Positions 18,984-25,632 of a stretch of DNA of 64,000 nucleotides are shown here, in pieces. Source of the stretch: Gammaproteobacteria bacterium (lineage in GTDB: Bacteria > Pseudomonadota > Gammaproteobacteria > JACKNK01); contig JACKNK010000001.1 in the NCBI GenBank assembly GCA_024234955.1, forward strand, positions 389,331 to 453,330, in the 5' to 3' direction. Within the stretch, counting starts at the first letter, position 1. Each line of letters opens with the position of its first letter. Below the pieces are notes generated by a model. It saw nothing but the letters and a program-made list of their open reading frames with translations. It was not told where the DNA came from and did no database searches. Both the position numbers and the translations under genes were made by a program.

Positions 18984-19059
18984 TCCCCGGTAGCTCAGTC
19001 GGTAGAGCGGATGACTGTTAATCATTAGGTCGGCGGTTCGAGCCCGTCCCGGGGAGCCA
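18984..19059 (+). tRNA. tRNA-Asn (anticodon GTT).
   Basis: The sequence is TCCCCGGTAGCTCAGTCGGTAGAGCGGATGACTGTTAATCATTAGGTCGGCGGTTCGAGCCCGTCCCGGGGAGCCA. It has a 7-bp acceptor stem, a GTT anticodon inside CTGTTAA, a T-loop GGTTCGAGCC and an encoded CCA. Confidence 0.9.
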
Positions 19060-19330
19060 AATCCAAAGCCCGAAGTGGTCTAACCGCTTCGGGCTTTTTC
19101 GTTGCACGGTGGCAAAGCTCGCCCCGCCGACTGCGTCGCCGGTGGAGGCCGGACTTCCCTGCCCGGCCCCGCTTCGCGGCGGCCTGAAGGCCGTCCAATT
19201 CCGTTCCCGACGGAATTGTCGAGCCCGTCCTGGGGAGCCAAATCTAAAGCCCGAAGTGGTCCAATCGCTTCGGGCTTTTTCGTTGCGCGGCGGTAAAGCT
19301 CGCCCCGCTGACTGCGTCGCCGGTGGAGGC
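19038..19330 (+). repeat. Tandem ~112-bp direct repeat (copies at ~19038-19149 and ~19219-19330, ~90% identical).
   Basis: Each copy carries the last ~22 nt of tRNA-Asn, the terminator hairpin, and about 50 nt further. Copy 2 has CCT where the tRNA has CCC. Most differences fall in hairpin loops. Confidence 0.75.
19065..19100 (+). terminator. Rho-independent terminator downstream of tRNA-Asn.
   Basis: The hairpin is AGCCCGAAG...CTTCGGGCT followed by TTTTT. Confidence 0.7.
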
Positions 19331-19449: not shown

Positions 19450-20361
19450 TTAACCGCCGATGAAATCCGAAATCATGTCTGCGGCGTCTTCCAGATACAG
19501 GTCACGGAAGAAGTGATCGGCACCGTCGATGATCTCCAGCTTCACATGGTCTCCGTCGGCAACGCTTTCCATTTTCGGGATCAAGTCATTGACGACGGTA
19601 TCGGCACTGCCGGCAATGACCAGCACAGGCGCCTTGATGCGTCCGACCACACGCGGGGTGTCGAGGTCCGCGTCCGGCCGGTAATAGCCGACGAATGCAT
19701 CGGCGGTGGCTTCAGTCTGCTTGCAGTAAATGAAGTCGATGGGATTCATGACTTCATCCCCTTTCCCGGCGGCCACCAGGGCTTCCGCTTTGGCAAGCAG
19801 GGGTTTGAGTTCGACGCCGTATTTCTTCTTGTAATCCTCGGCCTCACCGTCCTCGCTCCAGGTCATGGGTGCAATCAGGATTGCGGCGTGAATCGCGCCT
19901 TCATCCTGAGCGGCCGCGAAACGTGCTGTTTGATTGCCGCCCCGAGAATGACCGAGCACGGACACATTGGTCGCGCCTTCGGCCTTCAACCAGTCATACC
20001 AGGCACCGATCTCGCCGATGGCATCGGTGTGTTTATGGTTATGACGCACCGCGCAGTCATACATGGATTGCGCGCGGTCGTTGATGCCGAGGCTGAGGTT
20101 GATTGCGAGGGTGTTGATGCCCCGCTCGGCCAGCAGGTGCTGTAGCCCGCTGATTATCTCCATGCCTGCATGTGCGATGGTGCCGTGGGTGATCAGCACG
20201 GTCGGGGCGCCACTCAAGCCTGCGTCAACGGTCTCCAGGTTTGCATTCAGCACGACACCGTCGTGCGTAATGCGCACCTCATCGGCGTGCACAGCCGGGC
20301 TGTGCAACCCGATCAAGAGCGGTACGGACAGGGTGGCCAAGGTCGTAAGCAGTTTGCGCAT
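19450..20361 (-). CDS. Secreted alpha/beta-hydrolase-fold protein.
   Basis: Signal peptide MRKLLTTLATLSVPLLIGLHSPAVHA. Nucleophile elbow GHSRGG. A C-terminal D/H region. Confidence 0.7.
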   Translation of the reverse strand: MRKLLTTLATLSVPLLIGLHSPAVHADEVRITHDGVVLNANLETVDAGLSGAPTVLITHGTIAHAGMEIISGLQHLLAERGINTLAINLSLGINDRAQSMYDCAVRHNHKHTDAIGEIGAWYDWLKAEGATNVSVLGHSRGGNQTARFAAAQDEGAIHAAILIAPMTWSEDGEAEDYKKKYGVELKPLLAKAEALVAAGKGDEVMNPIDFIYCKQTEATADAFVGYYRPDADLDTPRVVGRIKAPVLVIAGSADTVVNDLIPKMESVADGDHVKLEIIDGADHFFRDLYLEDAADMISDFIGG

Positions 20362-20406
20362 GATGTTGTCTTTTCGAGTGGTAAACCGTGCCGTGACGGA
20401 GAGCGA

Positions 20407-21246
20407 TCAGAATAGGCCAAGAATGCGTTTCAGAAGGGCCTGGTTGGGGTGTTCGGCCCGCTGCATTGCGAAGATCTGACGCTTGAATTCCGGGGCGTCT
20501 GCGACCGGATACAAACGCCCGGCTTCCACCAGGTTTTGCGCCATCGCCTCGGGCAGGTAAGCCGAACCGTCCAGTGCACCAAGCAAATCGAGGGCCACCG
20601 AGCCCTGACTTACCTGAAGACGACTGGACTGGATCGCTGGCAAGGATTCGTTCTCCCCACTTGCCAGATTGAAGCTCCCCCCCCAATCCACACTGATATG
20701 CGATGCGTCCGCGATCTCGTTGGTTTCCCGCTGGGGTTCGGTGGCATAAAGGCGCAAAGGCACGTCTGCCATCGGCGTCACATGCAACCCGTTGGTGTGC
20801 GAGGTTTCGAGTACAAAGGCCAGGTCGAGCGAGCCGTCTCCAAGCTTCCGGATCAGCGTATGGGCGTCACCAATCTCCAAATGCAAGGCAACATCCGGCA
20901 GTTCCAGCCGTAGACGAGTGACCCAGGACTGCAACCAGGGCTGCCACAGGTCCAGCACCCCTCCAATGGAAACGCTCGCGGATTGCCCATCCCTCAAGGC
21001 GACCTCCGCTTTGGCCCGTCCCCAGGAACGAACGATGATCTCGGCGTGACGGCTGAGTCGTTCACCGGCCGGGGTCAGACGAATATCGTTGCGACGCCGG
21101 TCGAACAGGTCTACACCAAGCGTGGACTCAAGCAATTTGATGCGCGCGCTGACCGCAGATTGGGTAACGAACAGATTGTTCGCCGCGTTACCGAAGTGAC
21201 GGGTGCGTGCGACTTCGAGAAAGGTGCGTAATAAGGCGATGTCCAT
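20407..21246 (-). CDS. LysR-family transcriptional regulator.
   Basis: The N-terminal HTH reads LRTFLEVARTRHFGNAANNLFVTQSAVSARIKLLE. The protein is 279 aa and is transcribed divergently from the acidic-protein/GNAT/RimK operon. Confidence 0.9.
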   Translation of the reverse strand: MDIALLRTFLEVARTRHFGNAANNLFVTQSAVSARIKLLESTLGVDLFDRRRNDIRLTPAGERLSRHAEIIVRSWGRAKAEVALRDGQSASVSIGGVLDLWQPWLQSWVTRLRLELPDVALHLEIGDAHTLIRKLGDGSLDLAFVLETSHTNGLHVTPMADVPLRLYATEPQRETNEIADASHISVDWGGSFNLASGENESLPAIQSSRLQVSQGSVALDLLGALDGSAYLPEAMAQNLVEAGRLYPVADAPEFKRQIFAMQRAEHPNQALLKRILGLF

Positions 21247-21276
21247 CGGGAATTGGCTCTCTTACGACAAGTGATG

Positions 21277-21293
21277 ATGATCTTCACGATCAT
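21277..21293. promoter_or_regulatory. Perfect inverted repeat ATGATC-N5-GATCAT in the LysR / operon divergent intergenic region; candidate LTTR operator.
   Basis: The sequence atgatcttcacgatcat contains two GATC sites. It sits 31 nt upstream of the lysR start codon on the opposite strand. Confidence 0.4.
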
Positions 21294-21452
21294 GACATTT
21301 CGTTAGCGTAAGCGTCGATGGACATCTACAAAGCGCGGAAACGTCGGGCAACCACCCGACCTTCCTTCCTGATCGGCAGTGGTCCTCACGAGCAAGCCGA
21401 TCCCTGCTTTCCCGGCATTCTGCCGGGTTGCAGAAATCTGGAGAACACAGCC

Positions 21453-21653
21453 ATGGGCGATTCTGACGATGATGACTTGATTGATGATGATGACGAATTC
21501 AGCTCCGATGACGACCTGAATTTCGATTCCGAGGATGAGGAGGTTGAACTACGCCATCGTTCACCGCTCGAACTTCGACGCCAGCTAGAGCGTCGTCGTG
21601 AGTTATCCGAACTCCGACGTCTGCTTGACGACCCCTTTCTGGAACTTGATTGA
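21453..21653 (+). CDS. Small (66 aa) extremely acidic protein.
   Basis: MGDSDDDDLIDDDDEFSSDDDLNFDSEDEEVELRHRSPLELRRQLERRRELSELRRLLDDPFLELD. A GGAGAA RBS lies 8 nt upstream. Its stop overlaps the start of the next gene. The longer track ORF from 21318 lacks an RBS and has a biased N-terminus. Confidence 0.55.
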   Translation: MGDSDDDDLIDDDDEFSSDDDLNFDSEDEEVELRHRSPLELRRQLERRRELSELRRLLDDPFLELD

Positions 21654-22828
21654 ACCAACAACATTCGGCGACCGCTCCAGCCTCCTCCGCACCTGATTCG
21701 ACGGTCCCCTCCGCGTCGTCATTGCCGATTTCCAAGGCCGTACCACGGGTCGCGGGCAAAACCGACCTGGACTCCTTAGTCGCCCTGGAAGACCGCTGCT
21801 TCGCCAGCGATCGCCTGAGCCGCCGGCAATTCCGTCACCTGCTGCAACGCGGCAACGCACAGATTCTGGTCATCGACGCCGATGCGCACGGCCTCGCAGC
21901 CGCCATCGTCGTCCTGTTCCGCCGTGCGACCTCCATTGCCCGTCTGTATTCCATCGCGGTGGACCCGGATCAACGTGGGCGTGGTTTCGCCCAGACCCTG
22001 GTTGCGGCTGCAGAGGCGGAGGCGTGGGCGCAGTCGCGCGCGTGGATGCGTCTGGAAGTCCGCAAGGACAACACTGCATCCATCGGGCTGTTTGAGCGCC
22101 TTGGGTATCGCCGTTTTGGCGAATACCGGGACTATTACGAAGACCATATGGACGCCTGGCGCTTCGAGAAGCAGCTCGATCCTGGCCTGAAGCCACCGTT
22201 GGCACGGGTTCCTTATTACGAGCAGACCCTCGATTTCACCTGTGGCGCGGCCTGTCTGATCATGGCGATGCAGGCCCTGAAGCCGGATGAACAGCCGGAT
22301 CGCAAGCTGGAACTGCGCTTATGGCGTGAAGCCACCACCATTTTCATGACCTCAGGTCATGGCGGCTGTGGCCCCTATGGCTTGGCATTGGCCGCCAAAC
22401 ATCGTGGTTTCGACGTTCAGGTCTTTGTGTCGGATCGTGAACCGCATCTCATCGAGTCGGTGCGCAGCGACGCAAAAAAGGAAGTCATGAGCCTGGTCCA
22501 GGAAGATCAGGAAGAGCAACTGCAGCGTGAAGGCGTCCCCATTTCGACTGACGTCCCGGACATCGTTGCACTCGAAGCCTTGTTCCACGATGGTCACATA
22601 CCGCTGGTGCTGATCAGCTCGTGGCAGATTTATCAGGAACGATGGCCGCATTGGGTGGTGATCAATGGTTTCGATGAACATTTCATCTATGTTCATGACC
22701 CCTTCGTCGATTATGACAACGGTGAGAATCGCCTGGATTCGATCAACATGCCCATCAGCCGCGAGCAGTTCACACGCATGGCCCGTTACGGTCGGCGCGG
22801 TCTGCAAGCGGTCATCACCCTGCGCTGA
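21650..22828 (+). CDS. Fusion protein: GNAT (RimI-like) acetyltransferase domain plus a C39-like papain-fold cysteine peptidase domain.
   Basis: GNAT motif A is LYSIAVDPDQRGRGFAQTLV. The C39-like catalytic Cys context is YYEQTLDFTCGAACLIMAMQAL, and the downstream His is HWVVINGFDEHFIYVHDP. The start is TTG per the track and is uncertain. Confidence 0.7.
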   Translation: MNQQHSATAPASSAPDSTVPSASSLPISKAVPRVAGKTDLDSLVALEDRCFASDRLSRRQFRHLLQRGNAQILVIDADAHGLAAAIVVLFRRATSIARLYSIAVDPDQRGRGFAQTLVAAAEAEAWAQSRAWMRLEVRKDNTASIGLFERLGYRRFGEYRDYYEDHMDAWRFEKQLDPGLKPPLARVPYYEQTLDFTCGAACLIMAMQALKPDEQPDRKLELRLWREATTIFMTSGHGGCGPYGLALAAKHRGFDVQVFVSDREPHLIESVRSDAKKEVMSLVQEDQEEQLQREGVPISTDVPDIVALEALFHDGHIPLVLISSWQIYQERWPHWVVINGFDEHFIYVHDPFVDYDNGENRLDSINMPISREQFTRMARYGRRGLQAVITLR

Positions 22829-22840
22829 GGCTATAGAGCA

Positions 22841-24343
22841 TTGAGTGAACACATCCTGCTGGTCGAAAAAACCAGCGAATGGAAATCCGAGTACCCGCCT
22901 TATCCGGTGGTTGCAGCCAGCGACTATCTGACCAATTCCGAGTGGGCCAATCGCAAGGGCCTGCGCGTGGTGAATCTGTGTCGCAACTCCGGCTATCTGG
23001 GCATCGGTTACTACTGTTCCTTGCTTGCTGAGGCGCGTGGACATCGTGTCGTTCCCGACATTCGCACCTTCAACGACCTGAGCCGCAAAGCGTTCTACGG
23101 TCACGATCTCGAGGAACTGGACCGTCGGGTACGTCGGGTTCTGGGGCGCCGCAAGTCCGGACTGGAAACCACCCGCTTCGAGATTGTCATCGTGTTCGGG
23201 GAATGTCGGGTCTCCGAACTGGCCGGCTTCGCTCGTGAATTGTTCATTGCCTTCCGTGCACCGCTCATGAAAGTGGTGTTTGAACGCACCCATCACTGGC
23301 GTATCGAAGCCGTGCGCCCGGTGACGCCGGGACAACTGGATCCGGCCAACCGGGACTTGTTCTTCGACGCCCTGCAGACCTATCTGGGCAAACCCTGGCG
23401 CCGTCCGCGCACCAGGAAGGCACCGCGTTACGACCTCGCGATCCTGCACGACCCCGATGAGGCCATGCCGCCATCGAACCGACAGGCCCTGGCCCGGTTC
23501 ATCAAGGCAGGCAAAGCCGCCGGGATCGCCGTGGAGCTGATCACGCGCAAGGATTTCGGTCGCCTCGCGGAATTTGACGCACTGTTCATCCGCGAGACCA
23601 CCTCGGTGAACGACCATACGTATCGCTTCTCGCGCCGTGCGCAAAGCGAGGACATGGTGGTGATGGACGACCCGGAATCGATTCTGCGCTGCAGCAACAA
23701 GATCTATCTCGCTGAACTGCTCACCAGCAATGGCGTCGCCGCACCCAAGACCGCGATCGTGCGCCCCGAGAACCTTAACGAACTCGAAAACAGCCTGAAT
23801 TATCCGATGGTGCTGAAAGTCCCGGATGGGTCGTTTTCCCGGGGTGTCATCAAGGTCGAAGATCGGGAAGAACTCGATGCGGGTGTGAAACGGCTTTTCA
23901 ACCAGACCGAACTGGTATTGGCCCAGGAATTCGTCCCGACGCAATTCGATTGGCGCGTCGGGGTGCTCAACGGTGAAGCGCTGTTCGTCTGCCAGTACGG
24001 CATGTCGCCTGGCCATTGGCAGATCATCAACCACAACTCCGGCGGCCAGTCTCCGCGTGAAGGCGATCATCGCACCATCTCGGTCGAAGACGCGCCGCCC
24101 AAAGTGGTCAAGACGGCCATCCGCGCGGCGCGACTCATCGGCGACGGTCTGTACGGCGTGGATCTGAAGGAAACCGCCAAGGGCGTCCTCGTGGTCGAAG
24201 TCAACGACAACCCGAATATCGACGTCGGGGTCGAAGACCAGTTCCTCGGCGACGCCTTATACCAACGAATCATCAGCGAATTCGTGCGTCGCCTCGATCA
24301 AAGCCGTCACGCTGTCCGAAGCGGCCCCGCAAACGCATCGTGA
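22841..24343 (+). CDS. RimK-like ATP-grasp ligase with a long N-terminal (RLAN-type) extension.
   Basis: The C-terminal half has RimK-like ATP-grasp motifs: YPMVLKVPDGSFSRGV, ELVLAQEFVPTQFDWRVGVLNGEALFVCQY and GLYGVDLKETAKGVLVVEVNDNP. The total of 500 aa is much longer than the 300-aa RimK. Confidence 0.8.
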   Translation: MSEHILLVEKTSEWKSEYPPYPVVAASDYLTNSEWANRKGLRVVNLCRNSGYLGIGYYCSLLAEARGHRVVPDIRTFNDLSRKAFYGHDLEELDRRVRRVLGRRKSGLETTRFEIVIVFGECRVSELAGFARELFIAFRAPLMKVVFERTHHWRIEAVRPVTPGQLDPANRDLFFDALQTYLGKPWRRPRTRKAPRYDLAILHDPDEAMPPSNRQALARFIKAGKAAGIAVELITRKDFGRLAEFDALFIRETTSVNDHTYRFSRRAQSEDMVVMDDPESILRCSNKIYLAELLTSNGVAAPKTAIVRPENLNELENSLNYPMVLKVPDGSFSRGVIKVEDREELDAGVKRLFNQTELVLAQEFVPTQFDWRVGVLNGEALFVCQYGMSPGHWQIINHNSGGQSPREGDHRTISVEDAPPKVVKTAIRAARLIGDGLYGVDLKETAKGVLVVEVNDNPNIDVGVEDQFLGDALYQRIISEFVRRLDQSRHAVRSGPANAS

Positions 24344-24819
24344 TTGCGCGATTCTGGCTTCTGTCGTTGGCATTTTCAGCGCTGGCTCAGGCCGCCGCAG
24401 GCCCGCTGTCGGTGGATGCCATCCTGCAATTCCGGGAAGCACCGCCTGGTGTCGTGTTCGAGATCATCGAGCCGTCGCCGGAGCAACTTGCGCCTGCGCT
24501 GTTTCAGGCCCAGACGGATGCGGCACGTCTGCGCGACAAGTTTCCCAAACTGCCCATCGCGATCGTCAGCCACGGTCGCGAACAGTTCGCCCTGCTGCGC
24601 GAGAACGCCAATCGCTTCGAAGCCGCGCATCGGGCTAGCCACGCACTCATCGACAGTGGCGTCGAAATCAGCGTTTGCGGCGTAAACGCCGAACGTCGTG
24701 GCAAGACCGCAGAAGACTTCATGCAGGAAATCGACGTCAGTGCGGAAGGTCCGGCCAGAATTCGCGATCTGGAAGCGCTCGGTTATCTTCGGGTGCGCGT
24801 GCGTAGCGCCAAACCCTGA
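24340..24819 (+). CDS. Secreted DsrE/DsrF-like (YchN-fold) protein; putative.
   Basis: Signal peptide MIARFWLLSLAFSALAQAAAG. The start GTG overlaps the RimK-like stop (GTGA). Motifs VVFEII...IAIVSHG...ISVCG are reminiscent of the DsrE family. Confidence 0.45.
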   Translation: MIARFWLLSLAFSALAQAAAGPLSVDAILQFREAPPGVVFEIIEPSPEQLAPALFQAQTDAARLRDKFPKLPIAIVSHGREQFALLRENANRFEAAHRASHALIDSGVEISVCGVNAERRGKTAEDFMQEIDVSAEGPARIRDLEALGYLRVRVRSAKP

Positions 24820-24826
24820 AACGCAA

Positions 24827-24864
24827 AACGCCCGTCAGTATCGGTTGACGGGCGTTCTGTTTTT
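24827..24864. terminator. Bidirectional rho-independent terminator between the convergent DsrE-like gene and mlaA.
   Basis: AACGCCCGTCA-loop-TGACGGGCGTT followed by CTGTTTTT. Confidence 0.65.
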
Positions 24865-24882
24865 GAGCTTGAGGACGACGTG

Positions 24883-25632
24883 TTACTTGGCGGGCGGTGG
24901 CGGAGGTGCGTCCAACAACAGATCGTCTTCGCTGAAACCGCCCTTGGCGACCGTTTCGGCGCCGTCCGCAACCAGATAAGCACGACGCTGCAGGTAGGAA
25001 TCCCGCAGGGTCTGATACGGATCGTAAGCCACCTCATCCAGAACGTCGGTAGCGGTCAGCAGATCGGCTCGGGTATCGATGGCACGCAGAATCACCGCAA
25101 CCCAGCGATCCCGCTCCGGATGGACATGGGCAACCGGGTCGATATACCACTCGGCGACAAAACCGACGCCATCACGAACGTTGCTCGGACCGAAGATTGG
25201 CAACACCAGATACGGACCGGTGCCCATACCCCAGTAACCCAGGGTCTGACCGAAGTCTTCATCATGTTTTTCCAGACCCCACATGGTCGCCACGTCGAAC
25301 ACACCGAGGATGCCGAAGCTGGTGTTGACCATGATGCGGGAAAGATCGGACAACGCGTTGACCAGCTTGAGCTGCAGGACGTTGTTGATCATCACACTGA
25401 CATCGTCAATGTTATTGAAGAAGTTGGTGACGCCTTTATCGACCACATCCGGGGTCACGGCCTTGTAAGCTTGTGACACCGGCTTCATCAGAGCCCGATC
25501 AAAGGTCTCGTTGAAGCTGTAGATGCCGCGATTCAACGGCTCCAGCGGATCTTCCGGATGAGCGTTCGGCCCGGTGGCGCAGCCACTGAGAACAGATCCG
25601 GCAACGAATAAAAGCAAGAGCTTGCGAAGCAT
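24883..25632 (-). CDS. mlaA: Phospholipid-binding outer-membrane lipoprotein MlaA (VacJ).
   Basis: Lipobox LSGC. VacJ-family block GPYLVLPIFGPSNVRDG. 249 aa. Confidence 0.85.
   Translation of the reverse strand: MLRKLLLLFVAGSVLSGCATGPNAHPEDPLEPLNRGIYSFNETFDRALMKPVSQAYKAVTPDVVDKGVTNFFNNIDDVSVMINNVLQLKLVNALSDLSRIMVNTSFGILGVFDVATMWGLEKHDEDFGQTLGYWGMGTGPYLVLPIFGPSNVRDGVGFVAEWYIDPVAHVHPERDRWVAVILRAIDTRADLLTATDVLDEVAYDPYQTLRDSYLQRRAYLVADGAETVAKGGFSEDDLLLDAPPPPPAK

What the first reader, a model, noticed from the sequence alone, without database searches (positions are those of the whole stretch)
21453..21653. 66-aa hyper-acidic ORF with poly-Asp runs, coupled to the GNAT-peptidase gene
The sequence is MGDSDDDDLIDDDDEFSSDDDLNFDSEDEEVELRHRSPLELRRQLERRRELSELRRLLDDPFLELD. 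The N-terminal half is almost purely acidic and the C-terminal half is an Arg/Glu/Leu amphipathic helix. It has a good RBS, and its TGA overlaps the TTG start of the next gene. Composition this extreme is unusual for a globular protein. It suggests a substrate mimic, an unfolded carrier onto which residues are ligated, or a polycation/metal chelator.
Basis: seen in the sequence. Interest (0 to 1): 0.55.

Follow-up and report, generated by a model that had tools for sequence, protein, structure and literature searches.

The report
Small acidic PA3496-family protein gene
The 66-codon hyper-acidic reading frame is a real, conserved gene of a catalogued but uncharacterised family of tiny acidic bacterial proteins, and it sits next to a LysR regulator and a RimK-like peptide-ligase gene pair more often than chance would give, which makes it a testable candidate partner of that orphan enzyme system.

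Summary
ORF 21453..21653 (+) encodes 66 aa with net charge about -18. Residues 1-35 are 54% Asp/Glu. The C-terminal half is an Arg/Glu/Leu helix. The gene is under strong purifying selection (dN/dS about 0.07) and starts at ATG 21453, not at ATG 21318 as publicly annotated.

It is not an orphan. It is a divergent member of the PA3496 family (NCBIfam NF046101, Pfam DUF8197), whose function is unknown.

"Coupled to the GNAT-peptidase gene" is only partly right. The closest syntenic relatives keep LysR, the small gene and the downstream DsrE-like gene but lack the GNAT-C39 and RimK genes. None of 80 GNAT-C39/RimK loci has such an ORF directly upstream.

However, 6 of those 80 loci carry a PA3496-family gene within 4 kb. 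They represent at least 3 lineages and 4 different gene arrangements, and usually include an HdfR-like LysR ortholog. About 0.1-0.35 loci would be expected by chance.

My best reading is a three-part module of LysR regulator, small acidic protein and GNAT-C39 plus RLAN-RimK enzymes. The small protein would be a partner of the enzymes, as substrate or regulator. That last step is inferred, not shown. This is a new member of a known kind, of moderate interest.

The parts
21453..21653 (+). Coding sequence of the 66-aa small acidic protein (stop included). It is a divergent PA3496/DUF8197-family member.
   Evidence: ORF and translation. Purifying selection. Homologs P0002-P0004. Family link.
21440..21443 (+). 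Shine-Dalgarno-like GGAG, 9 nt upstream of ATG 21453.
   Evidence: Sequence. A purine-rich motif is kept at the same place in L087, L081 and L088.
21453..21557 (+). Codons 1-35. Polyanionic, predicted-disordered N-terminal half with the family's DD[DE]F motif (DDDDEF, residues 11-16).
   Evidence: Composition. Block-mean pLDDT 50-52 for residues 1-30. F16 and flanking Asp conserved.
21564..21626 (+). Codons 38-58. Conserved Arg/Glu/Leu amphipathic helix (PLELRRQLERRRELSELRRLL). This is the family signature (S/A)RRRIE..EL.RLR.LLDD.
   Evidence: AF2 helix 38-58 with block-mean pLDDT above 90. Residues 37-66 are invariant except 41, 52 and 62 among 4 relatives. Family alignment.
21277..21337 (.). 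Conserved non-coding element in the LysR/small-gene intergenic region. It holds the palindrome ATGATCttcacGATCAT (21277-21293), ATTTCGTTAGC (21297-21307) and CTACAAAGCGCG (21326-21337). It is a probable promoter or LysR operator of the small gene.
   Evidence: Conserved blocks in the 4-way DNA alignment. The exact 11-mer is present in L081-L088, including L088, which lacks the LysR gene. No sigma-70 consensus hit. The function is inferred.
20407..21246 (-). Divergently transcribed HdfR-like LysR-family regulator. It is the most consistently conserved neighbour of the small gene.
   Evidence: NCBIfam HdfR model 186.8 bits, below its cut-off of 240. 34% identity to E. coli HdfR. Orthologs (41-84% identity) lie next to family members in L081-L087, L090-L092, L062/63, L074 and L079.
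21650..22828 (+). GNAT (RimI-like) N-acetyltransferase fused to a DUF3335 / peptidase-C39-like domain. The longest ORF starts at TTG 21650, overlapping the small gene's stop. An alternative start is TTG 21722.
   Evidence: Pfam PF00583 and PF11814 (E 5.7e-86). Most of the 80 homologous loci align only from residue 25-33.
22841..24343 (+). RimK-like ATP-grasp ligase with an N-terminal RLAN domain.
   Evidence: Pfam PF14401 (E 4e-46) and PF08443. NCBIfam rimK_fam 91 bits, below its cut-off. It follows the GNAT gene in 78 of 80 loci.
24340..24819 (+). 159-aa DsrE-like protein with a hydrophobic, signal-peptide-like N-terminus. Its GTG start overlaps the RimK stop (GTGA). In relatives without the GNAT and RimK genes it directly follows the small gene.
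   Evidence: ORF. 59% identity to the 163-aa protein of L081. Synteny. Weak Pfam DsrE hit.

Best explanation
ORF 21453..21653 is a genuine gene for a 66-residue cytoplasmic protein. It is a divergent member of the PA3496/DUF8197 family of small hyper-acidic proteins.

Architecture:
- A disordered polyanionic N-terminal tail carries a conserved DD[DE]F motif.
- One highly conserved amphipathic Arg/Glu/Leu helix follows, then a short acidic C-terminal tail.

Expression:
- The gene is transcribed divergently from an HdfR-like LysR regulator.
- In this genome it is the first cistron of a tightly packed operon: small gene, GNAT-C39, RLAN-RimK, DsrE-like gene.

Proposed role:
- It is the small-protein component of a recurrent three-part module made of the LysR regulator, the small acidic protein and the GNAT-C39 plus RimK-like ligase pair.
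- The conserved helix would dock the protein onto the enzyme pair. The RLAN domain is the obvious candidate docking site.
- An acidic tail would then either be modified (amino-acid tailing by the ATP-grasp ligase, trimming by the C39-like peptidase, N-acetylation by the GNAT), or act as a product-like regulator of the enzymes.

Shown: the gene is real, its start codon, family relatedness, predicted architecture, and non-random co-location with the LysR and the GNAT/RimK genes.

Inferred: any physical interaction, any modification, and the direction of regulation.

Confidence by layer: real gene and family relatedness about 0.9. Member of a LysR / small protein / RimK functional module about 0.4. 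Actual substrate of the ligase about 0.2. The overall confidence value of 0.4 refers to the module-partner statement as a whole.
For: Real gene:
- dN/dS is about 0.07, and mismatches by codon position are 7/1/29.
- A Shine-Dalgarno-like motif is conserved, and in-frame stops precede the ATG in relatives.

Family:
- The window protein scores 15.7 bits on NF046101.
- Its close homolog P0004 scores 23.1, and profile-linked relatives score 31.9-46.1 against a cut-off of 22.
- Some relatives carry a precomputed Pfam PF26620/DUF8197 hit.

Architecture:
- AF2 gives helix 38-58 with block-mean pLDDT above 90 and a low-confidence N-terminal half.

Module:
- PA3496-family ORFs lie within 4 kb of the GNAT-C39/RimK pair in L040, L053, L062, L063, L074 and L079.
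- On NF046101 the L040, L053, L062 and L079 ORFs score 24.7-41 bits and the L074 ORF scores 21.5.
- With the window there are five different arrangements, falling in two deep clades of the GNAT tree.
- The expected number under random placement is 0.09-0.35, giving P(3 or more) of 5e-3 or less.
- All three pairwise links occur on their own: LysR with small gene and no enzymes (L081, L090); enzymes with LysR and no small gene (L013); enzymes with small gene and no LysR (L040, L053).
- In the window both junctions are 4-nt overlaps (TTGA, GTGA), and the GNAT and RimK genes have host-like GC3.
- One clade adds a divergent M14 carboxypeptidase next to the pair. That fits chemistry at a protein C-terminus.

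Established knowledge: RimK extends the acidic C-terminal tail of the small ribosomal protein S6 (cited in PMC4431377 and PMC10375531).
Against: - 74 of 80 GNAT-C39/RimK loci have no family member and no other hyper-acidic small ORF within about 4 kb.
- Sampling from the small protein outward, only the window lineage has the enzymes nearby. L081, L089/L102, L090, L093/L097, L096, L103 and L106 do not.
- The closest syntenic relatives lack the GNAT and RimK genes between the small gene and the DsrE-like gene. The tight coupling seen here is therefore lineage-specific.
- The extreme C-terminus is not conserved across the family (ends in LELD, LDLN, DEDY, LDDA, RDED, SEEE, DEQR, DFYL). This differs from the Glu-Glu end of S6.
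- Shared ancestry of a chromosomal neighbourhood, rather than selection, could explain part of the co-location.
- The LysR adjacency may mean only transcriptional control.
- No interaction, modification or expression data exist.
Confidence: 0.4

Rival explanations
1. The small protein has a function of its own that does not involve the RimK-like enzymes. That would be whatever PA3496-family proteins do elsewhere; NCBI's label is 'putative envelope integrity protein'. The HdfR-like LysR simply regulates it. The GNAT-C39/RimK pair lies beside it here because of a lineage-specific insertion or deletion, or because both belong to the same LysR regulon.
For: - Most family members are monocistronic in unrelated contexts.
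- The closest relatives keep LysR, the small gene and the DsrE-like gene without the enzymes.
- LysR adjacency is more frequent than enzyme adjacency. It is seen in the window, L081-87, L090-92, L062/63, L074, L079 and perhaps L098.
- 74 of 80 enzyme loci lack the small gene nearby.
Against: - Co-location with the enzyme pair recurs in at least 3 lineages besides the window and in different arrangements. This is far above random expectation.
- L040 and L053 keep the small gene next to RimK without any LysR.
- Ca. Thiodiazotropha assemblies carry both systems, though not adjacent.
- I could not trace any published evidence for the 'envelope integrity' label.
Confidence: 0.35
2. The small protein is a modulator of its neighbouring HdfR-like LysR regulator. 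The polyanionic tail would act as a DNA mimic or anti-activator that occupies the regulator's DNA-binding domain, with the helix providing specificity.
For: - The LysR/small-gene pair is kept adjacent both head-to-head (window, L081, L087, L090) and tail-to-tail (L062/63, L074, L079, L098). A shared divergent promoter alone does not explain this.
- The net charge is about -18.
- Established knowledge (my own recollection, not checked here): small acidic DNA-mimic proteins such as Neisseria DMP19 bind transcription factors.
Against: - I know of no precedent for a LysR-type regulator.
- Many family members have no LysR neighbour, and L088 has lost the LysR but kept the small gene.
- Known DNA mimics are usually folded, with fixed charge arrays. 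Here the acidic half is predicted to be disordered.
Confidence: 0.12
3. The ORF is a RiPP-type precursor peptide. The conserved helix would be the recognition sequence, and the variable acidic Ser/Asp/Glu-rich part would be the core. The ATP-grasp ligase would modify the core, the C39-like peptidase would cleave it and the GNAT would acetylate it. This mirrors the logic of microviridin or graspetide clusters.
For: - The gene set of small ORF, ATP-grasp, GNAT and C39-like peptidase resembles microviridin-type clusters (background in PMC8939145).
- The conservation pattern is one invariant helix plus a fast-evolving remainder.
Against: - The ATP-grasp is RimK-like with an RLAN domain. PMC8939145 treats RimK enzymes as separate from the graspetide ligases.
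- There is no double-glycine site, no Lys and no Thr in the putative core.
- The conserved part is C-terminal rather than an N-terminal leader.
- No transporter gene is present in the operon.
- Precursors normally sit next to their enzymes, whereas most family members do not.
Confidence: 0.04
4. The 66-aa frame is not the true product. Either the gene is the 111-aa protein starting at ATG 21318, as in the public annotation, or the frame is a chance ORF in a GAT/GAC-rich stretch.
For: - Gene callers annotated 111 aa (P0001) and 108 aa (P0002) forms.
- An antisense 92-aa ORF also exists at 21386..21664.
Against: - In-frame stops lie immediately upstream of the conserved ATG in L081 and L088.
- 64-66-aa forms are called elsewhere.
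- Third-position substitution bias is confined to 21453-21650 in the + frame.
- dN/dS is about 0.07.
- A Shine-Dalgarno-like motif is conserved before ATG 21453.
Confidence: 0.02

Closest known systems
PA3496 family 'putative envelope integrity protein' (NCBIfam NF046101) / Pfam DUF8197 (PF26620)
   Same: - Size is 57-88 aa.
- An acidic N-terminal region holds a DD[DE]F-type motif.
- The C-terminal helix signature is (S/A)RRRIE..EL.RLR.LLDD.
- A profile built from the window clade retrieves proteins that pass the NF046101 cut-off.
   Different: - The window protein itself scores 15.7 bits, below the 22-bit cut-off.
- It is more acidic than most members.
- It belongs to a rare subclade. Only 3 other sequences are recognisably close among 1.84 billion representatives.
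- The family has no demonstrated function, and I found no paper that supports its name.
Pfam DUF3545 (small gammaproteobacterial proteins of unknown function)
   Same: The RimK-adjacent relatives from L040 and L053 (...KWRNIEQYWEE.RLREQLKD...) give sub-threshold DUF3545 matches over the same helix (21.7 and 18.0 bits against a cut-off of 25). The two families may be related.
   Different: The window protein gives no DUF3545 hit. All matches are below the gathering score, and the function of DUF3545 is equally unknown.
RimK with ribosomal protein S6 (RpsF): C-terminal polyglutamylation of a small acidic-tailed protein, reversed by a protease (RimB in Pseudomonas)
   Same: - An ATP-grasp ligase of the RimK type is encoded with a peptidase, next to a small protein with an acidic C-terminal region.
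- Background papers: PMC4741518, PMC11957791, PMC10375531.
   Different: - The ligase has an extra RLAN domain and falls below the rimK_fam cut-off.
- The peptidase is C39-like and fused to a GNAT, not retropepsin-like.
- The small protein is unrelated to S6 and lacks a conserved Glu-Glu end.
- No modification has been shown.
Microviridin/graspetide RiPP clusters (precursor, ATP-grasp ligases, GNAT, C39-type peptidase)
   Same: The same four kinds of component are encoded together (PMC8939145).
   Different: - The ATP-grasp is RimK-like.
- There is no double-glycine motif and no Lys/Thr core.
- The conserved segment is C-terminal.
- No transporter is encoded.
- The small gene usually occurs without the enzymes.
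E. coli hdfR-maoP divergent gene pair
   Same: A 279-aa HdfR-type LysR regulator (34% identical to the window's) is transcribed head-to-head with a small gene across a short intergenic region.
   Different: MaoP (112 aa, DUF413) shows no similarity to the PA3496-family profile. This is only a positional analogy.
Small acidic DNA-mimic or RNA-polymerase-binding proteins (for example DMP19, SutA, RbpA), named from my own knowledge
   Same: These are small, strongly acidic proteins with a helix plus disordered tails. There is a weak, non-significant profile match to the RbpA sigma-interaction helix (E 0.68).
   Different: There is no significant sequence or structural relationship, and no binding data exist.

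Membership tests
PA3496 family (NCBIfam NF046101) / DUF8197 | Score at or above the curated NF046101 cut-off (22 bits). | tested here: not met
   The window protein scores 15.7 bits with E 0.015, aligned over residues 11-62 to profile positions 1-52 of 54. The close homolog P0004 (65% identical) scores 23.1 and P0003 scores 19.8. This is an operational naming threshold, so I call the protein a divergent relative, not a PGAP-nameable member.
PA3496 family (NCBIfam NF046101) / DUF8197 | Homology to accepted members shown by profile search. | tested here: met
   A profile of the window clade plus P0006 finds P0007 (E 4e-18) and P0008 (E 7e-9) in a 5.8-billion-protein database. These score 31.9 and 40.4 bits on NF046101. 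P0008, P0017, P0019 and P0020 carry a precomputed PF26620 hit.
PA3496 family (NCBIfam NF046101) / DUF8197 | Architecture: about 60 aa, an acidic N-terminal region with an aromatic residue in a DD[DE]F context, and a C-terminal helix RRxhE..EL..LR.LLDD. | tested here: met
   Alignments. AF2 helix 38-58. Composition.
RimK substrates (S6-like) | Conserved C-terminal Glu-Glu acceptor. | tested here: not met
   The window protein ends in ...FLELD. Family C-termini vary (LDLN, DEDY, LDDA, RDED, SEEE, DEQR, DFYL).
RimK substrates (S6-like) | Demonstrated ATP-dependent addition of amino acids by the ligase. | not testable with these tools
   This needs mass spectrometry or in vitro reconstitution.
RimK substrates (S6-like) | Genomic linkage between the small-protein gene and the ligase gene. 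| tested here: inconclusive
   6 of 80 ligase loci plus the window have a family member within 4 kb, well above chance. Most loci of either kind lack the other.
Graspetide/microviridin RiPP precursors | Graspetide-type ATP-grasp ligase, a Thr/Ser/Lys plus Asp/Glu core, and often a double-glycine cleavage site. | tested here: not met
   The ligase is RimK-like with an RLAN domain. The peptide has no Lys, no Thr and no Gly-Gly. Criteria are taken from PMC8939145.
DNA-mimic proteins | High negative charge density. | tested here: met
   Net charge is about -18 and pI about 4.05.
DNA-mimic proteins | A folded surface that reproduces DNA phosphate spacing, and competitive binding to a DNA-binding protein. 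| not testable with these tools
   The acidic half is predicted to be disordered.
Known RNA families (alternative to a protein gene) | Match to an Rfam model in 20300-25000. | tested here: not met
   Only one chance-level hit elsewhere in the stretch (E 0.41, at 24797-24870).

The most novel reading that the evidence does not exclude
PA3496/DUF8197-family small acidic proteins are the dedicated protein substrates, or primers, of the uncharacterised GNAT-C39 plus RLAN-RimK enzyme pair. In this reading the conserved helix docks on the RLAN domain and the ligase extends an acidic tail with amino acids. The C39-like peptidase (and, in some clades, an M14 carboxypeptidase) trims the tail, and the RimI-like GNAT acetylates the N-terminus. 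An HdfR-like LysR regulator controls the whole module. This would be a second bacterial protein-tailing system beside RimK/S6, analogous to tubulin polyglutamylation and deglutamylation.
Probability: 0.2. Interest if true: 0.7.

Novelty: new member of a known kind. Interest (0 to 1): 0.4.

Why it matters
On its own the ORF is a divergent member of an already catalogued family of unknown function, so the gene itself is ordinary.

What adds value is context. RLAN-RimK/GNAT-C39 pairs were easy to find: at least 147 of the species-representative genomes scanned encode a relative. I found no paper that names their substrate.

PA3496-family proteins are likewise named but unexplained.

A three-way genomic association recurs in several arrangements. 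It links an HdfR-like LysR, a PA3496-family protein and the GNAT-C39/RimK pair. This gives a concrete, cheap experiment: intact-mass analysis of a 7-kDa protein with and without the ligase. That experiment could assign a function to both orphan families at once.

The work also corrects the public start-codon call for this gene, from 111 aa to 66 aa.

Tried and rejected
- tblastn of the 66-aa protein against the 80 GNAT-C39/RimK loci gave no hits. Listing the ORFs that end near each GNAT start showed nothing acidic. The 'conserved directly upstream' idea was rejected.
- An exhaustive HMMER search of 1.84 billion representatives with the clade profile found only P0002, P0004, P0006 and one repeat-protein artefact, P0005. 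The close subfamily is rare.
With a narrower alignment it returned only 5 loci, none with GNAT or RimK genes. It added little.
- Pfam gave no hit for the window protein. The local Pfam copy did not report DUF8197, which is known here only from precomputed annotations.
- The PDB profile search gave nothing significant; the best hit was RbpA at E 0.68. I did not run a fold search, because a single helix would give meaningless matches.
- Literature searches:
  - PA3496 appears only in expression tables.
  - DUF8197 gets one passing mention, in Legionella.
  - DUF3545 gave nothing.
  - DUF3335 gave one classification paper.
  - RimK + C39 + GNAT together gave nothing.
  - The Iyer et al. 2009 amidoligase paper, which is cited for the RimK-like ATP-grasp families, is not held.
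- I tested homology between MaoP (the small neighbour of E. coli HdfR) and this family and rejected it.
- The sigma-70 promoter and intrinsic terminator scan of 21150-21800 found nothing. The Rfam scan found nothing.
- A search for substitute hyper-acidic small ORFs in the other GNAT/RimK loci found none apart from the family members. Some unrelated ORFs with hydrophobic, signal-peptide-like N-termini lie about 3 kb away in Sedimenticola.
- Recent horizontal transfer of the GNAT and RimK genes finds no support in composition: their GC3 is 0.69-0.73, like the flanking genes.
Full report
**1. The observation**

Window 21453..21653 (+) is an ATG-to-TGA ORF with the quoted translation. The composition is as follows.
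- It has 17 Asp, 10 Glu, 9 Arg and 12 Leu in 66 residues.
- Residues 1-35 are 54% Asp/Glu with a net charge of about -18.
- Residues 36-66 are charge-balanced and Leu-rich.
- The pI is about 4.05.

Nothing else in the 64-kb window approaches this. The next best 35-residue Asp+Glu fraction among 422 ORFs is 0.34.

GGAG sits 9 nt before the ATG. The TGA overlaps a TTG (21650) that opens the longest version of the next ORF. Both points in the finding are therefore literally true.

One caveat applies. Most of the 80 homologous GNAT loci align only from residue 25-33 of that ORF. The only other in-frame start is TTG 21722, so the 4-nt overlap is probable but unproven. No terminator-like structure separates the genes.

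**2. It is a real gene and it starts at 21453**

A protein search found three relatives besides the window's own public entry.
- P0002 is 86% identical.
- P0003 is 69% identical and 66 aa long.
- P0004 is 72% identical and 64 aa long.

In the four-way DNA alignment, substitutions in 21453-21650 fall 7/1/29 on codon positions 1/2/3.

Nei-Gojobori dN/dS is about 0.07 against the closest relative. Synonymous sites are saturated against the others, yet residues 37-66 are invariant except at positions 41, 52 and 62.

The public annotation starts this gene at ATG 21318, giving 111 aa. That extension is not conserved.
- L081 and L088 have in-frame stops immediately before the shared ATG.
- Against L087 the extension shows no clear codon-position bias (6/9/14).

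**3. What it is**

NCBIfam gives one weak hit, NF046101 'PA3496 family putative envelope integrity protein'. It scores 15.7 bits against a cut-off of 22 and aligns over nearly the whole 54-position profile.

The link holds up when followed through intermediates.
- P0004 scores 23.1 bits on NF046101.
- A profile of the window clade plus P0006 pulls in P0007 and P0008 at E 4e-18 and 7e-9 in a 5.8-billion-protein database. These score 31.9 and 40.4 bits.
- Some relatives carry a precomputed Pfam PF26620/DUF8197 hit.

The family alignment shows two conserved elements. One is an aromatic residue in an Asp-rich context, DD[DE]F. The other is a C-terminal helix, (S/A)RRRIE..EL.RLR.LLDD, followed by a short acidic tail that is not conserved.

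AlphaFold2 with a 20-sequence alignment predicts helix 38-58 with block-mean pLDDT above 90 and a low-confidence N-terminal half.

Other searches add the following.
- No solved structure is related.
- The close subclade is rare. An exhaustive profile search of 1.84 billion representatives found only three small-protein relatives, P0002, P0004 and P0006.
- I found no publication that explains the 'envelope integrity' name. PA3496 appears only in expression tables.

**4. Is it coupled to the GNAT-peptidase/RimK genes?**

The downstream genes are as follows.
- A RimI-like GNAT fused to a DUF3335/C39-like peptidase domain (21650..22828).
- An RLAN-domain RimK-like ATP-grasp ligase (22841..24343).
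- A DsrE-like protein with a hydrophobic, signal-peptide-like N-terminus, whose GTG start overlaps the RimK stop (24340..24819).

Three tests bear on the coupling.

(a) Enzyme-first sampling. Eighty GNAT-C39 loci from species-representative genomes were fetched with 4-kb flanks. RimK follows the GNAT gene in 78 of them.
- None has a homolog of the small protein directly upstream.
- None has any other hyper-acidic small ORF beside the pair.

(b) Small-protein-first sampling. In the closest informative relatives (L081-L086) the neighbourhood matches the window's: abhydrolase, LysR, small gene, DsrE-like gene, MlaA, TgpA, PepN. The GNAT and RimK genes are missing there, and 163 nt separate the small gene from the DsrE-like gene. 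More distant family members lie in unrelated contexts.

Read on their own, (a) and (b) would argue against coupling.

(c) A family HMM run on six-frame ORFs of the 80 enzyme loci changed the picture. PA3496-family ORFs lie close to the pair in six loci.

| Locus | Arrangement |
|---|---|
| L062, L063 | Small gene directly after RimK on the same strand, then a convergent LysR |
| L074 | RimK, then LysR, then a convergent small gene |
| L040, L053 | Convergent small gene directly after RimK, no LysR |
| L079 | Small gene and convergent LysR upstream; the LysR is divergent from the GNAT gene |

- On NF046101, the L040, L053, L062 and L079 ORFs score 24.7-41 bits and the L074 ORF scores 21.5. The near-identical L063 ORF was not scored separately.
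- The LysR genes are orthologs of the window's, at 41-44% identity over the full length.
- L013 has that LysR next to RimK without a small gene.
- On a GNAT tree, the loci with these neighbours fall in two deep clades, interspersed with loci that lack them.
- With about 431 kb of flank scanned and 1-2 family copies per 2.5-5 Mb genome, 0.09-0.35 co-locations are expected. Counting only three independent lineages gives P of 5e-3 or less.

All three pairwise associations therefore occur, each also without the third partner: LysR with small gene, LysR with enzymes, and small gene with enzymes. That is the pattern expected of a functional module that is often dispersed.

It does not prove one. Inheritance of an old neighbourhood with local inversions could produce part of it.

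Within the window, both junctions are 4-nt overlaps and GC3 is host-like. A recent foreign insertion therefore finds no support. Deletion in the L081 lineage is at least as likely as insertion here.

**5. The strongest conserved partner is the LysR regulator**

It is HdfR-like: 186.8 bits on the HdfR model, below that model's cut-off of 240, and 34% identical to E. coli HdfR.

It lies next to family members in two orientations.
- Head-to-head in the window, L081-L087 and the Thiodiazotropha loci L090-L092.
- Tail-to-tail in L062/63, L074, L079 and possibly L098, where the LysR is only 31% identical.

The LysR/small-gene intergenic region holds a conserved element. It consists of the palindrome ATGATCttcacGATCAT, then ATTTCGTTAGC and CTACAAAGCGCG (21277-21337). 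The element persists even in L088, where the LysR gene is gone. It is probably the promoter or operator of the small gene, but this is inferred.

**6. Mechanism**

Shown: the protein has a polyanionic disordered tail and one strongly constrained amphipathic helix.

Inferred: the helix is a docking element, and one of the acidic tails is the working part.

I rank the readings as follows.

(i) Partner of the GNAT-C39/RLAN-RimK enzymes under LysR control, about 0.4. The specific version in which the small protein is a tailing substrate is about 0.2.
- For: the RimK/S6 precedent (PMC4741518, PMC11957791, PMC10375531), the presence of peptidases, including an M14 carboxypeptidase beside the pair in one clade, and the co-location statistics.
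- Against: the variable C-terminus and the frequent separation of the genes.

(ii) A RimK-independent family function, with the LysR merely regulating the gene, about 0.35.

(iii) A modulator or DNA mimic of the LysR, about 0.12.

(iv) A RiPP-like precursor, about 0.04. The gene set resembles microviridin clusters. However, the ligase is RimK-like, there is no double-glycine site and no Lys/Thr core, and the conserved part is C-terminal.

(v) Not this gene, or the 111-aa form, about 0.02.

It does not explain the invariant helix.

**7. Comparison, novelty and verdict**

The protein is a divergent relative of a catalogued family of unknown function, so I rate it a new member of a known kind.

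It works, at most, like an S6-type RimK client. It fails the one sequence feature that defines such clients, a Glu-Glu end.

The useful new points are these.
- The corrected start codon.
- The family assignment.
- The recurrent association of LysR, small protein and GNAT-C39/RimK, which suggests a simple mass-spectrometry test for two orphan families.

Interest is 0.4.

Noticed in passing
window 21318-21452; public entry P0001: The public annotation of this MAG calls the gene as 111 aa from ATG 21318, and a relative (P0002) is called as 108 aa. Comparative evidence puts the start at ATG 21453 (66 aa). The extension is an annotation artefact.
   Followed up: yes
window 21238-21248 and 21316-21326: A perfect 11-nt inverted repeat (GATGTCCATCG / CGATGGACATC) lies 67 nt apart and brackets the conserved intergenic element. 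One arm covers the LysR start codon and the other covers the spurious ATG 21318, so both frames begin Met-Asp-Ile. About 0.03 such pairs are expected by chance in 500 nt. It may be part of the LysR autoregulatory site.
   Followed up: partly
window 21277-21337: Conserved non-coding blocks lie about 115-175 nt upstream of the small gene's start: the palindrome ATGATCttcacGATCAT, then ATTTCGTTAGC and CTACAAAGCGCG. They are kept in L081-L088, including L088, where the LysR gene has been lost. No sigma-70 consensus match was found.
   Followed up: partly
window 21650-24343 compared with L081 6202-6364: The GNAT-C39 and RimK genes (about 2.7 kb) are present in the window but absent from the otherwise syntenic loci L081-L086. 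The direction of the event (insertion or deletion) is unresolved. GC3 of the two genes is host-like.
   Followed up: partly
window 21453-21653: The small gene has a much lower GC3 (0.46) than every neighbouring gene (0.67-0.74). This is largely because of the many GAT Asp codons.
   Followed up: no
L040 2145-3839, with corresponding ORFs in L053, L074 and L065: In one clade a peptidase M14 (zinc carboxypeptidase) gene is transcribed divergently from the GNAT-C39/RimK pair (Pfam-confirmed for L040; matching ORFs in the others). A carboxypeptidase next to a RimK-like ligase fits addition and removal of residues at a protein C-terminus.
   Followed up: partly
L005, L006, L010, L012, L014, L019 and related loci, upstream of the GNAT gene: In 12-15 of the 80 loci the pair is preceded by an M20-family peptidase gene (Pfam-confirmed in L005) and a 447-aa ORF that looked ArgA-like to me by eye. 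In L001-L004, L007 and L009 an Ada/AraC-type regulator gene follows RimK (Pfam-confirmed in L001). These neighbours look clade-specific.
   Followed up: no
L101 (E. coli K-12 3947128-3948424): E. coli hdfR is also transcribed head-to-head with a small gene, maoP (112 aa). MaoP shows no similarity to the PA3496-family profile, so the parallel is only positional.
   Followed up: yes
window 18984-19330: A tRNA-Asn (GTT) gene lies at 18984-19059. A 112-nt segment that begins in its 3' end (19038-19149) is repeated at 19219-19330 with 93% identity. This looks like the scar of an element that integrated at the tRNA. The syntenic relatives L081 and L082 carry a Phage_GPA replication-protein gene in the corresponding region.
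   Followed up: partly
window 24340-24819: A 159-aa protein with a hydrophobic, signal-peptide-like N-terminus and a weak DsrE/DsrF-like match (below the Pfam threshold) is translationally coupled to the RimK-like gene. In relatives it is the direct downstream neighbour of the small acidic gene. Its role is unknown.
   Followed up: no
L090-L092, compared with L025, L030, L037-L039, L046, L056 and L067: Ca. Thiodiazotropha assemblies carry both a head-to-head LysR/PA3496-family pair and a GNAT-C39/RimK pair, but at different loci. The two systems therefore co-occur at genus level without being adjacent.
   Followed up: no
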